NCBI GenBank assembly: GCA_965216875.1
Contig: OZ244207.1
Span: forward strand, 1,216,001 to 1,280,000
Source of the DNA: Rubripirellula sp.
Lineage (GTDB): Bacteria > Planctomycetota > Planctomycetia > Pirellulales > Pirellulaceae
Direction: 5' to 3'
DNA: 64,000 nucleotides
The position numbers are program-made. Positions 21,001 through 30,000 of the stretch are shown here, in pieces. Position 1 is the first letter of the stretch. Every line of letters starts with the position of its first letter.

Positions 21001-24000
21001 AACAATCACATTTCATCTACTCGTTGCGCAACATCATCCATCACAAGAAAGACGGTAACTTTGGTCCCAGAATAACTCGGTGGCGAATCGGACTCAGGAT
21101 CTTTAGGAGAGCAATATGCTGGAAACTCCACCAAGTCAGCTTCAGGGAGTTCCTCGATTACGAAGTATTTTGACGCGCCTTCAATCGTCATACGTAGCGG
21201 TCTGGAACCGTACTGAAATGTTTCGACAACAATTCGGTCGCCGCCGAGGAAGCAGGAAAGGAACCCAATCCCAAACTGCGAGCAGGCCTCTAGATGAATG
21301 CCCATCTCCTCCAAACGCTCGCACTCAGCCGAAAACTCAGGAGAGCGATAGAAACTCTTTCCGACTTGCATGAAGAAGTTCTCGACCTGATCAAGGGACA
21401 TTCCAATCCCGTTGTCGCGAAACTCGATTCGTGGGCCCTCGTCTGGATTGCTAGCCACATGGGGCAAGCCGCTGCCGTCCCAGACTTGGATCCGCGGTAC
21501 GTAATTGACCGGCTTCCCCTGATGGGAATGTGCCTCCGCCCGCGCTTGCTGGTAGCGGCAGGCGTCGAGCGAGTTTTGGAGCAGCTCCCGTAGGAACATC
21601 GTCTCGTCCGGGTAGAGACTCTTGTCCATCAAGAGCTTCATAATCCGTTCGTAGTCCAGCTGGAATCGGAACCCTCCTGCGACGAATCGAGGGTCGGCCA
21701 TATTCACTTGGTAGCGATCAACGATGGGCGCGAGCCTCAACTGGTACCGATCCGCCATTTCGTTTGGGAGCTCCCGAACGAGCCTAGTTGCGTCCTGCAA
21801 TTCGCGGTCGACCCAATCGAGATAGGCGTGGACCGCAACATAGTCTTCCGGAGTCTCGCAGTCAGCGATGAACTCGATCCTTTCGGTAGTAACATTGACG
21901 CCTTTGATGCTTAGGTGTTTGTTCCATTCGGCAATCGAGATCGACTCGGTGAAGTGAATTGAGTGAAAGGCCGAGCATGGAGTGCGAGTGCGATCGAAAT
22001 CTAGGATGTCACCTAGGCGTAGGCAGCAAGCAAGATATCGAAGATTGATGCGTGTATTGCCCAAGTGGTCCGCGTTGCGCATCCGCAATACGCATTGCTC
22101 TGGCTTTCGTGGATCTCGAGACTGGCGTACGCCCCAATTGTGGCTTTCGCAAAGGATGCCGATGTCCAGCGTCAATGTCGCTCCCCGAAAACGTAATCTC
22201 TCCGCAAGATGCGACTGGATGAATCTGTGTACTCGCTCTGCATGGCGTTGACGAATGAACTCAGCGAAGACCGCGTCGCGAACGCAATCTGCTTTGACCG
22301 TCTCGCCATTCCTTTCTGCCTGGTCGGCGTCATCAAGACGCCCGCGATTGTGCCGGCAATGCGACTTGTACTCGTCAGAGTCGAGGATCGCCTGTTTTTC
22401 ATCAGCCTCGGATACGAACATTCCCACATCGTGGAGCAAGATCGACAACCACTGAAAAGCTAGCTCAATCGCGTTGAGTTGGATCGACTCTGGCTCATGG
22501 CTCTGACGAGGCAGAAAGTCGTGGACATGACCAGCAACGTTGAGCAAGTGGTCGAGGTCGTGCTTTGTGTACTGTCTGAACGTATGTTGAATTCGGTCGA
22601 TGAAAGGCTCCACGACGTCCGAAACCTCGAGCACTAGGCCCTGAAGCTGCTTGACCTCCGCTCGAGTCACCTCTTCATAGTCGTGAAGGTTGTTGAACTG
22701 CTGAAAGAGCCTGTGACTCTCGATCGAATCTCGGAAACCCATGCCCGCCCCTGACGCTGCTCTCGGTGTTGCAAGTCCCGGTGGGACTGCTCGTGGGAGT
22801 ATTCTACGGAATGGTTTCTGCGCTGTCGTGGTGCCGCGGCTTGGGCCGGTGAAATGTGTGCCACAGTGGCACTATTGGGCCGGAGGTAAATGAACGGTCG
22901 GTCGATGCAAACGACTTGAGTTCAGGGAGAGCCAAATTCCCGTCGGTGTCACCAACCAGGGAAATTCAGTGATTCGGCGTCGGCCATCGGAGCATCGAAT
23001 CGACAGTTGGTAAGTCGCTTAAAAACTGCCCTACATATGGCATTCAACCATTGATGCGTCGTTCCGGCTTCGCTGCCGGACGGGCTCCCCTCGGCTTGGG
23101 CCGAGGCTTCGCTACGCTCGGCCTCCACACCGGCTGCATCCATGTCCCGAAGGCACATTCGCGGCGACCATCCATGAGTCGCCGTGCCTTACGGAATTTC
23201 GTCACTCGATGCGTAGGGCGTCACCGCCCGCGCTCGCTCCGACGTGAGACATCGTCTTTTACTTAGTTGACATTCTGCGGGAATTTTGACGTGATCTCCG
23301 CTGCTCATTGGAACATCTACCGAAGTTCCGGCGGCGTGGCGACATCTTCTCCTTTGGCAACGGTTTCTACGCCCCCGCTATCCGGCACCTGCTGAGGCAG
23401 AATCAAAAATGAAGCGCAAGTGTGGCGTTCGTTTACAAATTCCGATTCACGTAAAACGCTACTGCGGGGGAAGCCGAACACGAGAATCTCCAATACAATG
23501 CACTTTGCATACGACCAAACGTGAATTGAAAGCACATCTAGTGACCAGGGCTGACCGAGTATGGCCGAAACCTCGAAGCAGAAATGTGGGGTCCTTTGGC
23601 AATCTTGAACTCTACGCTGGAACTCTGTTTCTCGCGGAATCAGAGGGGACAATCACACAATCCACACTCACGTCTGATGAGAAAGGGCTAGGCCAGCGCC
23701 TACGCGGCTTACTTTTGGTTCAACGCGTGACGCCCACGACTGCGGGTGATTTGATTACTGAGCTTCAAGCTTACGAGTGGATTCAGCGTCAAGACACTTT
23801 TCCAAGAAGCTATTCATTGACACCCGATGGTGTCGCTGCAGCCCAAATTGCGAAGACTGATCGACACGGTTTCCGGCGGTTGTTGCTCATGAAAATGCAA
23901 CAACGCTTTGTAGTGCCAGGCTGGTTCGTCGATCGTTTGCACACGATAAACCCGCACGGTGGTGATGTTGTCCTTCCAGGACCACGCCCTGGTTGGCGGC

Positions 24001-27000: not shown

Positions 27001-30000
27001 TGTGACGTACCTCAGGCCGTCACACTCGGCAACGGAGATACCGTTCCAATTGAATGGACAGACGCCGTCCACGTAGCAACAGTTCTTTCAAGGGAAGAGA
27101 GCACACTCTTGATCTCTGGCGATCAAAGGCTCTCGTGTATTCCAGATATTGCACATCGAGTAATGACATAGACCTACATATAGACTCACGGCTCTTTTGC
27201 GAACGAGAAGGATGCCTCACAATTTCAGACGGGAATCCCAGCTGCGTTTCCCCCTGTCTACCATTCCGGTCCATTGTTTCAGTTGAGGTTTATTGCTACG
27301 AAGATCGACTTTGAACGATCGCCGCAATGATTTCTTTGGTCGCTTCGTCCAGAGTGGATCACGACTGCGAAACGATGCGTAAAGAGGCATCCAAGTCGTC
27401 CGCCGAGCGGGCAGCGCCACTTATCGCCGGGCAAAACTGCATGATTCCCAACGATTCAGAAGATTGTATCGTTTCCGTCGGGTGACGAACCTATCGCTGC
27501 GGTGACAAATGCTCCGGTGGCCGACACCGAAGCGAGTTCGCCAGAAGCCGATATGACTTCGGCTGGACAAACCGAAGCAGTCACTCATGCCGCTGAATCA
27601 CGTGCCACTGTGGCACAGAATCGACCGAGCCAGCCTCATCGTGTCGCGGCCAGCGCGTCAATCACTTGATCCGGACGGAACCTCCTGCAGGTGCCGATTT
27701 TGATCGACGGGACCTCCTCATTGCGGACGAGCTGTTGGAGCTTCGACCCACTAATCCCAAGCCGTCTAGCCATCTCATCAGCGTCAACGAGGAAGTGCTC
27801 ATCTGGCTCCCGGGCGTCGGTCTGGTCGCGCCGTCGCTCGATCTCGTCGCAGACCATTGAGACGAACTGGTCGATCTCGACGCCCTGAAGGAAGATCTGC
27901 TGTCCTGTTGCCATCACTAGCTCCTTGGTACACGGTGGCTCGTACTTGCACCGACCGATCAAGCGATGATCTCACAGTGTCGTTGCAGGTAGTTTATCGG
28001 TGAAGCCTCCGTACCGGCCGGGAAATCAGATTGGATGGTGGGGCTTGGCCGAGGCAACCGTGCCACAGTGGCACGGATTGAAGTTGCGGGGACCTCCTCT
28101 CAACTACCCGAGCCGTTTTTGGTGTTGCGCTCTCGATGGGGAATGTAAATCAAGAAGCGATCGCGAATTGGGTCCCCACCCCCATGTCGCCACAAGTTTT
28201 TCCTCATGCACTGAGATGCTGCCCGCGTAGCATTCCCGCGACCAGATGGTCAGCGACTTATAGGATCTGCTACGCAACACTTTGCGCTGAGCCCGATCGA
28301 GCTAAGGATTTTGGTTGTCGTCCTCTTGGACAGCTGCAGCCGCAACCTCCAGAGAGTAGCAGCTCTGTGGCAACCTCGGGTGATGCGAGTCATGGAGAGA
28401 GCCCAGGATGAATGTTGACGCACGCACGTTTGGAGAGCAGTTTTGGTCGTTGTTCGAATCGGAGGACATCGACGCCGCAACCTGCCGGTTCGCGGTACAG
28501 CGAGCTCTGATTCACGCCGCGGAAGGATTGGCCGAACTGGATTGTTTCCTACAGGAGGCGTACCGTTGTTTCGAAGCGACTGGAGACAAAACCCGCGCCC
28601 ACGATGTTGGGACGATCGTTGAGGCGATCCTGCTTGGTTGTCGAGCGTATGAGCACGGCAGCACCGAGATCGAAGGGACCAACCTACTGGTCCTGAAGAC
28701 GATGCTGTCGGTTGGCCGCAAGGCCACTGGTGGAAACGCCTGTGTGGATGAACTCAGCGACGCGCTTGACCACCGTCAAGACGAAGCTGTGGCATCAGCA
28801 TAGGTTGTGCTGCTGAGGTCCCGCCGTTTCACGCGGCGGGGCCATTTGGCCTACGCGTGTGCGAAAGAGGAGGGTCCGGAGGCTCCATCGATAACCTTTG
28901 CAGGAGGAACACCGCATGGCCTATCTTGAACACATCAATAGCTCTGGCAAATTACGATTCCGGCTTGTCTTTCGCTTCGAAGGCAAGCGCAAGAGCGTCT
29001 CGCTGACGGGCTTCGACGAACCTGCCGCGGAAGTGGCGAAGGAGCACGTTGAGCATCTGATCGCCCAGCACGCTCTACAACGGCCCCCCGCAGCCTCGAC
29101 GATGCAGTGGCTGTCTCAGCTGTCGATCAAGCTGCATGACCGACTCGCCGCGATCGGGCTGGTGGAGTCCCGCAAACACAGCGACATGCCTCGCATGGTC
29201 GTCGCCTACATGCGGGCGTACATCAAGGACCGAACCGATTGGAGGAAACCCGAGAACTACCGGCAAGCTGTCGACAAGCTCGAGGAGTACCTTAAACGCG
29301 ATCGGCCCCTCCGCGCGCTTACCAAAGGTGATGCCGATCGATTCCACCGTTGGATGATCGATACGTTAGGTATGTCGAGAAACACTGCCGGCCAGCACGT
29401 CAAACGCTGCCGACAGATGATTCGACACGCCGTTGATGATGACCTGGTTACGTTCAACCCGTTTGTCGGTATCAAGATCGACCTCAAGAGCGATCGATCC
29501 AAGAATCGCTACATCACGGGCGTCGAGGCGAATGCAATCCTCGAGGCGTGTCCAGATCAGGAGTGGAGGGCGATCGTCGCCTTAAGCCGGTTTGCGGGCC
29601 TGCGCTGCCCGTCTGAAGTGCTCAACCTGAAATGGGAGGATATCGTCTGGGACCGCGATCGCTTCAAGGTGAGGGCTCGCAAGACGGAACGCTATGGGAC
29701 CGGTGAGAGGATTGTTCCGCTGTTTCCTGAGGTTCGGCGAGAGCTAGCGGACCTCCAGGAGGTTGCCGGGAAAGGTGCCTACGTGGTCAATACCTATCGA
29801 TCCGGTGAGGCCAACCTGAGGACGACCTTCCTCAAGATCGTCGATCGCGCGGGTGTCGATCGCTTTCCCAAACCCTTCAACAACCTCCGCGCCAGTTGTC
29901 GCCGGGACCTGAAGGTCCACTGCATTCGTGAGGGCATAGACGAGGCTGCAGTCACCCAGTGGCTTGGTCACAGCAAGCAGGTCGGTGAAGAGTACTACGA

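What a model noticed while it worked through the whole genome (the two positions that open the first line are those of the whole stretch)
23409..27171. Undescribed four-gene operon (winged-helix protein, ORC/Cdc6-type ATPase, two PIN-fold proteins) on a tRNA-Arg island: c [...]
g00915-g00918, all unannotated, form a four-gene operon kept in the same order across at least six phyla: a winged-helix protein, an ORC/Cdc6-BrxC-RdrA-like ATPase, a degenerate PIN-fold protein and a PIN nuclease with its acidic residues. It matches no catalogued system and often sits among restriction and BREX-type genes, so it is a candidate anti-phage system.
Evidence so far: 30 genome loci of the ATPase: the winged-helix gene precedes it in 30 of 30, the PIN gene follows in 25 of 30 (2 of the 5 others end at contig edges), with a 100-185-aa ORF between; records span Planctomycetota, Verrucomicrobiota, Bacteroidota, Chloroflexota, Desulfobacterota and Clostridia. 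Folds: g00915 PadR/MarR-type winged helix (Z 11.3, rmsd 2.2, 76 aligned; call 131); g00916 Cdc6/Orc1, RdrA, BrxC (Foldseek E 2.6e-4 to 6.5e-4; call 127); g00917 top 12 rows PIN/VapC (Z 6.2-4.8; call 142); g00918 family hits Pfam PIN in 13 of 23 members with D7, E75 invariant and D138 near-invariant. No PADLOC match for the four genes and only stray ones for 2 of 25 family members; no NCBIfam family for 3 [...]
(Added by a program. Inside this text positions count along the whole contig: contig position 1,216,001 is position 1 of the stretch shown here. "Call 12" and the like, gene names such as g00115 and contig names such as C1 are that model's own, and its searches are not shown. The text may have been shortened before it was handed on; [...] marks where a part breaks off. 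The agent that wrote the report below was given it as the finding of a first reader that could run no searches.)

Follow-up and report, generated by a model that had tools for sequence, protein, structure and literature searches.

The report
DNA-reader, ATPase, twin-PIN defence cassette
Four tightly packed genes (a DNA-reading protein, a ring-forming ATP motor, a probable dead nuclease and an intact nuclease) travel together across many bacterial phyla and most likely form an untested anti-virus system that turns detection of foreign DNA into RNA destruction.

Summary
The operon is real and more conserved than first reported. All four genes keep their order in 28 of 30 genome loci (the other two end at contig edges). 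In a sister clade only 22-31% identical, gene A precedes the ATPase in 68 of 70 loci with room and the PIN follows in 55 of 58.

Gene A is a triple winged-helix protein of DndG/SspB/BrxA/FokI layout, not a MarR/PadR regulator. Gene B is an Orc/Cdc6-TnsC-type AAA+ ATPase. Gene D is a PIN with all four catalytic acids in 79 of 81 sequences. Gene C as a dead PIN is only weakly supported.

Deeper relatives add support for defence: A is fused to Eco57I-type methylases (19 of 20 proteins), a C-like domain is fused to the PIN (2 loci), and a PD-(D/E)XK nuclease replaces the PIN pair (4 loci).

Best reading: an anti-phage system, often a backup inside restriction or BREX-related loci, in which A and B sense DNA and switch on the PIN RNase. 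It is untested. The scan noted a similar methylase-linked cassette before on other DNA.

The parts
23409..24827 (+). Gene A: triple winged-helix DNA-binding protein (domains at about residues 63-151, 152-335 with a two-helix insert, and 365-470). The true start may be TTG 23505 or 23526, or GTG 23541. An E-x-D in the third wing (E438, D440) is invariant.
   Evidence: AF2 model, mean pLDDT 85.9, residues 1-46 under 50. Foldseek: FokI 2fok E 6.1e-3, prob 0.80, 428 columns but TMq 0.23; SspB 6juf E 0.12. VIA: MarR-type Z 11.1, rmsd 1.4, 72 aligned, first domain only. Atlas nearest named clusters DpdG and FokI recognition domain, 0.79, leads only. E438 and D440 in 75 of 75. Starts.
24844..26223 (+). 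Gene B: AAA+ ATPase of the Orc/Cdc6-TnsC-BrxC group, with no C-terminal winged helix in the model. Walker A GRGIGKT (K94, codon at 25123) and Walker B LLLIDEME (D274, codon at 25663; E277).
   Evidence: AF2 mean pLDDT 90.3. VIA: Aeropyrum ORC2 Z 18.0 (rmsd 3.6, 277 aligned), Cdc6 17.5, TnsC 15.3, MuB 14.8, BrxC 12.0. Foldseek best hit BrxC 9zll E 9.1e-5. K94 82 of 82, D274 80 of 82, E277 79 of 82, H319 81 of 82.
26220..26657 (+). Gene C: fast-evolving 120-150 aa protein (TTG start overlapping B's stop), with no conserved catalytic residues. Probably a dead PIN-like paralogue of D acting as adaptor or inhibitor.
   Evidence: Present by homology or position in 28 of 30 and 56 of 58 loci. No invariant column. 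hhalign against D: score 21.8, above all 40 block-shuffled controls (maximum 15.5), but probability only 8.6%. No Atlas or Pfam hit. A C-sized domain is fused before the PIN in L131 and L137.
26650..27171 (+). Gene D: PIN-domain nuclease with the complete D-E-D-D tetrad (D7, E75, D138, D158; codons at 26668, 26872, 27061, 27121).
   Evidence: All four acids in 79 of 81 sequences. Pfam PIN at E<=0.01 in 17 of 27 family members, 4 above the gathering score; the window protein itself has no hit. Sister-clade profile against this profile: 97.5%.
9876..9896 (.). Left attachment site: 21-nt copy of the tRNA-Arg 3' end (30184-30204).
27636..27962 (-). Excisionase-like HTH_17 protein of the island.
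   Evidence: Pfam PF12728 E 1.3e-6.
28898..30211 (+). Tyrosine integrase of the island, running into the tRNA 3' end.
   Evidence: Pfam PF00589 E 3.9e-9 and PF13102 E 2e-10.
30183..30258 (-). tRNA-Arg(ACG), the integration site and right border.
   Evidence: ARAGORN. The same tRNA and right-flank gene are in congeners G401 and G402, without island sequence.
21006..22742 (-). Divergent neighbour, not part of the conserved unit: HD-CE plus HSP90-like ATPase conflict protein, ending right after the ATPase domain.
   Evidence: Pfam HD-CE E 7e-48; NCBIfam HSP90 partial match. Another HD-CE gene was seen beside the operon only in L013.

Best explanation
A mobile, self-contained anti-phage (anti-invader) system built as reader, motor and gated toxin. 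Shown: the domain make-up, intact ATPase and PIN active-site residues, fixed gene order, foreign island location, and effector and partner exchange in relatives. Inferred: (1) A binds a DNA sequence or DNA state typical of the invader; (2) ATP-bound B assembles as a ring or filament on the DNA at A, as TnsC and Orc/Cdc6 do; (3) assembled B acts on C, a dead PIN-like subunit bound to D, and unlocks D; (4) D cuts RNA, tRNA by analogy with VapC, and the infected cell stops growing or dies. The window's form has no methylase of its own, so it would not mark self DNA. It would act as an abortive layer, often as a backup inside restriction-modification and BREX-related loci. I put defence in general at about 0.8 and this whole chain at about 0.55.
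For: Order is kept in 28 of 30 genome loci, and in a clade 22-31% identical: A in 68 of 70, C in 56 of 58, D in 55 of 58 loci with room, over 69 ATPase clusters at 90%. The PIN tetrad is in 79 of 81 sequences and the Walker motifs are conserved. In 4 of 7 deeper loci a ~250-aa ORF with an invariant D..E-x-K motif (PD-(D/E)XK type) stands beside the ATPase instead of the PIN pair. In 2 of 7, A is fused to an Eco57I methylase and a C-sized domain to the PIN, ahead of a PLD-SNF2 helicase. 19 of 20 long proteins carrying domain A are methylases and 1 is a PNP-NACHT-TPR protein. Of 29 non-redundant loci, 12 have a named defence system in the fetched flanks and 3 more have a PADLOC candidate or effector-like gene. 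L009 and L011 lie directly behind the DUF499 genes of Hma-type loci; L013 lies between BREX and Qat. The operon's GC is lower than every sampled genome window, on an integrase island. PIN domains are essential in the validated systems DS-3 and DS-5 (PMC13092281, passages). An inactive PIN coupled to a nuclease is described for Menshen NsnC (PMC12065111, passages).
Against: There is no experiment. 12 of 29 loci show no defence neighbour among the proteins scanned, and 2 more have only a lone methylase or helicase. The 96 proteins scanned with PADLOC were hand-picked and have no background control. C as a dead PIN is not statistically significant, and neither is the match of the fused N-terminal domain to C (1.7%). 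Whether D cuts RNA or DNA is unknown; the swap with a restriction nuclease fits DNA as well. L132 has A and B with no effector behind them, and L091 has lost C and D. The FokI/SspB structural match is weak (TMq 0.23, rmsd 20).
Confidence: 0.55

Rival explanations
1. A restriction-type system without suicide. A and B load on foreign (for example modified or unmodified) DNA and bring D, acting as a DNA endo- or exonuclease, to it. A itself may nick through its invariant E-x-D.
For: Deeper relatives carry a PD-(D/E)XK-type nuclease in the same slot. A is fused to methylases in 19 of 20 long proteins. An Eco57I-type methylase gene or fragment lies directly upstream in 6 of 68 sister-clade loci. 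E438 and D440 are invariant in 75 of 75. SspB being a nickase is recalled, not from a call.
Against: D is a small stand-alone PIN of VapC size, and such domains are described as RNases. Most loci, including the window's, have no linked methylase to protect self.
Confidence: 0.22
2. An addiction (toxin-antitoxin) module that stabilises the island: D is the toxin, C the antitoxin, and A and B regulate them.
For: C and D look like a paralogous pair with overlapping genes. The operon lies on an integrative island here and beside integrases, resolvases or mobilisation genes in several loci.
Against: The C-sized domain and the PIN are one polypeptide in L131 and L137. There was no hit in 72,556 plasmids, 50,697 phages or the viral contigs. 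A 900-residue reader and motor pair is not needed for addiction, and it also pairs with restriction nucleases.
Confidence: 0.1
3. A Tn7/Mu-like targeting module (TnsD-like reader plus TnsC-like ATPase) of a mobile element, with the PIN genes as cargo.
For: B matches TnsC (Z 15.3) and MuB (Z 14.8) nearly as well as Orc/Cdc6, and the operon appears at unrelated chromosomal places.
Against: No flanking family is shared by more than 3 of the 30 genome loci or 6 of the 80 metagenome loci, so no transposase travels with the unit. C and D are as constant as A.
Confidence: 0.04

Closest known systems
Unnamed 'Orc/Cdc6 ATPase + ASCH-REase + DndG-like triple wHTH' operons predicted in PMC10853773 (Rakesh, Aravind, Krishnan 2024; passages and section 19 read)
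   Same: A triple winged-helix protein coupled to an Orc/Cdc6-clade ATPase and a nuclease in a mobile operon. The deeper relatives found here (L133-L136) have a restriction-type nuclease.
   Different: The effector here is a small dead-PIN-like protein plus an intact PIN, with no ASCH or restriction domain. The paper's supplement could not be read, so a listing of this family there is not excluded.
SspBC of SspABCD(E) and BrxA/BrxC of BREX (PMC10853773; PMC12839542 sections 20 and 36)
   Same: A triple winged-helix reader and an Orc/Cdc6-type AAA+ motor.
   Different: No PAPS reductase, PglX or PglZ. The ATPase is 460 aa, against more than 1000 profile positions for SspC. No PADLOC or Pfam member-level match.
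DndG/DptG of DndFGH
   Same: Similar size (DndG 450-500 aa; A about 430-470) and three winged helices with a two-helix insert in the second.
   Different: No PADLOC match to DndG among the 12 gene-A proteins scanned, and no DndF or DndH is linked.
Menshen (NsnA-B-C; PMC12065111, passages)
   Same: The same logic: DNA-binding sensor, ATPase transducer, and inactive PIN plus nuclease effector.
   Different: Menshen uses ParB-DUF262 and an ABC ATPase with a BECR or other nuclease. Here the parts are a triple winged helix, an AAA+ ATPase and an active PIN. This is an analogy, not homology.
VapBC toxin-antitoxin pairs and the PIN defence systems DS-3 and DS-5 (PMC13092281, passages)
   Same: An active PIN RNase with the D-E-D-D tetrad as the likely effector.
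   Different: No VapB-type antitoxin. The PIN is bound into a four-gene unit with a DNA reader and an ATPase.

Membership tests
BREX / BREX-related (BR) systems | BrxA-like multi-wHTH protein | tested here: met
   Three wHTH domains in the model, with weak whole-length FokI and SspB matches. Met as architecture only; there is no sequence match.
BREX / BREX-related (BR) systems | BrxC or DUF499 ATPase (Orc/Cdc6 AAA+ with long C-terminal domains) | tested here: not met
   The clade fits, but the protein is 459 aa with no C-terminal extension, and BrxC_BrxD matches are below the cut-off in all members tried.
BREX / BREX-related (BR) systems | PglZ and/or a cognate methylase as core genes | tested here: not met
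   No flanking family is conserved across the 30 and 80 loci. A methylase is fused or adjacent only in a minority.
SspABCD / Dnd phosphorothioate systems | PAPS-reductase modification enzyme (SspD/DndC) in the unit | tested here: not met
   None among 245 neighbours scanned with Pfam, and none conserved.
Orc/Cdc6 + REase + triple-wHTH operons (PMC10853773) | Triple wHTH protein plus Orc/Cdc6 ATPase in one operon | tested here: met
Orc/Cdc6 + REase + triple-wHTH operons (PMC10853773) | ASCH-fused restriction endonuclease as effector | tested here: not met
   The effector is a PIN pair. A PD-(D/E)XK-like ORF without an ASCH hit occurs only in deeper relatives.
PIN / VapC nucleases (gene D) | Conserved D-E-D-D acidic tetrad | tested here: met
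   79 of 81 sequences; Pfam PIN in 17 of 27.
PIN / VapC nucleases (gene D) | RNase activity on tRNA or rRNA | not testable with these tools
   Needs biochemistry.
Inactive PIN (gene C) | PIN fold without catalytic acids | tested here: inconclusive
   hhalign score 21.8, above 40 of 40 shuffles, probability 8.6%. No structure was predicted here.
Menshen | ParB-DUF262 sensor and ABC-type ATPase | tested here: not met
   A is a wHTH protein and B an AAA+ ATPase.
Tn7-like transposons | TnsB/DDE transposase and TniQ with the ATPase | tested here: not met
   No conserved transposase in the flanks.

The most novel reading that the evidence does not exclude
A protein-only circuit in which a restriction-enzyme-type DNA reader (A) and an ORC-like ring (B) convert recognition of a DNA site, or of a stalled or inhibited methylase complex, directly into RNase-driven suicide through a dead-PIN/live-PIN switch, with no second messenger.
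Probability: 0.25. Interest if true: 0.82.

Novelty: new variant of a known kind. Interest (0 to 1): 0.62.

Why it matters
The triple winged-helix reader and the Orc/Cdc6-type ATPase sit at the core of BREX, Ssp and Dnd-related systems, where how they recognise DNA and trigger a nuclease is still open. This is a stripped-down form: about 1,250 residues, soluble, no methylase, with a simple nuclease output and natural effector swaps. That makes the recognition step directly testable. If D is an RNase, it links DNA recognition to abortive RNA cleavage by a route not found in the papers I searched.

Tried and rejected

Expression: no RNA holder is listed. Contigs of one run only guessed to be RNA lay mostly on genes A and B (6 of the 8 pieces shown); this is not counted as evidence.

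Fused forms of C: the search with the sister-clade C alignment found none among 8000 candidates, which is weak evidence. Atlas and Pfam gave nothing for C.

Sequence-profile searches of the PDB gave nothing useful for D or A; the best relevant hit was VapC at E 1.0. VIA lists for A were filled by first-domain MarR/PadR matches and did not show FokI or SspB in the top 50.

No relative was found in viral contigs, plasmids or phages. Samples of 401 genomes from the window's phylum and from the phylum of G424 held only the centre genome. PADLOC gave only stray hits for 2 of 71 family members, and NCBIfam none for 22.

The promoter and terminator scan was at chance level. A clean empty site was not found: the congeners lack the island beside tRNA-Arg, but their left flank does not match the window's either. 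The 15-nt palindrome flanking the operon was rejected as A's target because it belongs to the island and is absent from L001-L110.

Eight literature searches did not show this gene combination. The library lacks most subscription papers, and the supplements of PMC10853773 and PMC12839542 could not be read.
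Full report
Observation. The four ORFs are present on the + strand at 23409-24827 (A), 24844-26223 (B), 26220-26657 (C) and 26650-27171 (D), with a 16-nt gap and two short overlaps. A's first ATG adds about 45 residues that are unstructured in the model and absent from most homologues, so the real start may be later. None of the four reaches a Pfam, PADLOC or NCBIfam family.

Island. The genes lie in an island of about 20.3 kb. tRNA-Arg(ACG) is at 30183-30258 and a 21-nt copy of its 3' end at 9876-9896. 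An integrase and an excisionase lie beside the tRNA. Operon GC is 0.498 against 0.563, lower than every sampled 3.76-kb window of the genome. Two genomes of the same genus share the tRNA and the gene to its right, but not the island; their left flanks do not match the window's, so this is not a clean empty site.

Conservation in the window's clade. The ATPase has 101 close homologues and 720 representatives at E<=0.001. The 30 genome loci were reproduced; L030 repeats L023. A precedes B in 30 of 30 (partial in L005, interrupted in L010). D follows in 28 of 30, and the other two end at contig edges. A C-sized ORF lies between B and D in all 28 (26 by clustering, 2 by position).

Conservation in a sister clade. 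This clade is 22-31% identical to the window ATPase. A is upstream in 68 of 70 loci with at least 400 nt of room. C follows in 56 and D in 55 of 58 loci with at least 850 nt. The misses are L036 (C cut by an integrase element), L091 (C and D replaced) and L105/L106 (ATPase fragments). No flanking family is shared by more than 3 of the 30 or 6 of the 80 loci, so the unit is these four genes. It is rare: samples of 401 genomes from each of four phyla gave 1, 7, 2 and 1 matches, the centre genome included.

Gene B. The model (pLDDT 90.3) matches archaeal ORC2 (Z 18.0, rmsd 3.6, 277 aligned), Cdc6 (17.5), TnsC (15.3), MuB (14.8) and BrxC (12.0). Foldseek ranks BrxC first (E 9.1e-5). Walker A K94 is in 82 of 82 sequences, Walker B D274 in 80 and E277 in 79. 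The motif names rest on my knowledge of AAA+ proteins.

Gene A. The model (pLDDT 85.9) shows three helix-helix-helix-wing units, the second with two extra helices. Foldseek's whole-length matches include FokI (E 6.1e-3, prob 0.80, TMq 0.23) and SspB (E 0.12). The Atlas's nearest named clusters are DpdG and the FokI recognition domain (0.79, leads only). PMC10853773 describes DndG as 450-500 residues with three winged helices and a two-helix insert in the second, and names FokI and SspB as cognates (section 19). A fits this layout without matching any of them in sequence.

Genes C and D. D is a PIN: the four acids are present in 79 of 81 aligned sequences (27 of the window's clade without L002 and L030, plus the 54 of 57 sister-clade members of 140-185 aa). 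Pfam PIN hits 17 of 27 at E<=0.01. C has no invariant residue. Its profile aligns to the middle of D's with a score above all 40 block-shuffled controls, but at only 8.6% probability. A dead PIN is therefore plausible and not shown by my tests.

Deeper relatives. Seven further loci were read. In L131 and L137, A is the C-terminal domain of an Eco57I-type methylase of 1,800-1,960 residues (E 7e-48 and 7e-43). B follows, then one 333-340 aa protein with about 150 residues in front of a PIN (E 2e-13 and 5e-11), and a PLD-SNF2 helicase after one short gene. The front part is C-sized but does not match C significantly (1.7%). A search with this A domain among long proteins returned 20, the query's own cluster included: 19 with methylase domains and 1 PNP-NACHT-TPR protein. 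In L133-L136 the ATPase is flanked by a ~250-aa ORF with an invariant D..E-x-K motif and by an A-like gene. That gene was found by HMM in L133 (E 3e-3) and L135 (E 4e-5), and by position only in L134 and L136; L134's ATPase is in pieces. L132 has A and B alone.

Neighbourhood. I scanned 245 neighbours with Pfam and 96 hand-picked ones with PADLOC. Of 29 non-redundant genome loci, 12 have a named defence system nearby (L009, L011, L013, L016-L021, L024, L026, L029). Three have a candidate or effector-like gene (L012, L023, L027), 2 are ambiguous (L001, L022) and 12 show none. There is no background control. L009 and L011 follow the DUF499 genes of Hma/BR-type loci, and L013 lies between BREX and QatABCD. 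In the sister clade an Eco57I-type methylase or fragment lies directly upstream in 6 of 68 loci (L068, L070, L079, L084, L089, L091). PMC12839542 describes PIN RNases as uncommon backup effectors of BREX and BR loci (section 35, part 1 of 2).

Mechanism. Most likely A recognises invader DNA, B assembles on it with ATP, and through C it releases the PIN RNase D, which arrests the cell (0.55 for the whole chain, about 0.8 for defence in general). The parts, their intact active sites and their linkage are shown; every interaction and the substrate are inferred. The rivals are DNA-directed restriction (0.22), island addiction (0.10) and a Tn7-like targeting module (0.04).

Comparison with what is known. 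The cassette works like SspB-SspC or BrxA-BrxC joined to a Menshen-like dead-PIN-plus-nuclease output. It is a member of none of them: it lacks PglZ, a core methylase, PAPS reductase, ParB and an ABC ATPase. The nearest printed description is the predicted Orc/Cdc6 + ASCH-REase + triple-wHTH operon in PMC10853773 (passages). Eight searches did not show the PIN-pair form. The supplements of PMC10853773 and PMC12839542 could not be read and may list it.

What I read. Passages only: PMC12065111, bioRxiv 2025.09.15.676423, PMC13092281, PMC12988326, bioRxiv 2026.09.23.753747 and PMC13069673. Of PMC12839542: the abstract, sections 20 and 36, and the first part of 35. I could not test whether it is homologous; sequence look-ups with two ATPases found nothing.

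Verdict. This is a real, widespread, uncatalogued four-gene cassette and probably a defence system. It is a new variant of the triple-wHTH + Orc/Cdc6 kind, with a new effector. Interest 0.62.

Noticed in passing
window 12840, 14227, 16916, 19469, 22858, 27602, 28060: A perfect 15-nt palindrome, GTGCCAC(A/T)GTGGCAC, occurs 7 times in the 8.26-Mb genome, all 7 inside the island, and in none of the related operon loci L001-L110. It is probably an operator or integrase arm site of the element.
   Followed up: partly
window 19704-22742: The HD-CE/HSP90 gene (21006-22742, -) stops right after its ATPase domain. A + strand ORF (20706-21173) and a - strand ORF (19704-20750) of no known family follow. 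It may be a broken or rearranged conflict gene.
   Followed up: partly
window 23033-23377: The intergenic stretch upstream of gene A has a 77% identical copy elsewhere in the genome (C1:644172-644541) and a 75% copy in congener G401. X2 contigs break at 23152-23339. It may be a small repeat or a structured RNA.
   Followed up: no
L131:1552-14728 and L137:130-11912: A complete larger system: methylase-A fusion, ATPase, C-like+PIN fusion, one short gene (a LexA-like repressor in L131) and a PLD-SNF2 helicase. It could be a restriction-modification type with a built-in abortive arm.
   Followed up: partly
P0274 (1466 aa): A PNP-NACHT-TPR protein, an NLR-like architecture, that carries domain A.
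   Followed up: no
L133:2839-3615, L134:9864-10625, L135:9226-9969, L136:7083-7853: An unannotated ~250-aa PD-(D/E)XK-like nuclease family paired with deeper ATPase clades; no Pfam or NCBIfam hit.
   Followed up: partly
L035, L036, L037, L040, L052: The operon rides next to a DUF5712 gene on related gut elements; in L036 an integrase element has cut gene C.
   Followed up: no
L015:21-21301: The operon is inserted between two non-ribosomal peptide synthetase genes.
   Followed up: no
window 14258-15700, 16272-16874: The island also holds replication-like and small phage-like ORFs with no Pfam match, but no structural phage genes were recognised; it may be a satellite-type element.
   Followed up: no
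window 13319-13339 and 30187-30207: A low-depth 5,066-nt contig of DNA run X2 carries 21-nt matches to both places; possibly a related element at low abundance.
   Followed up: no
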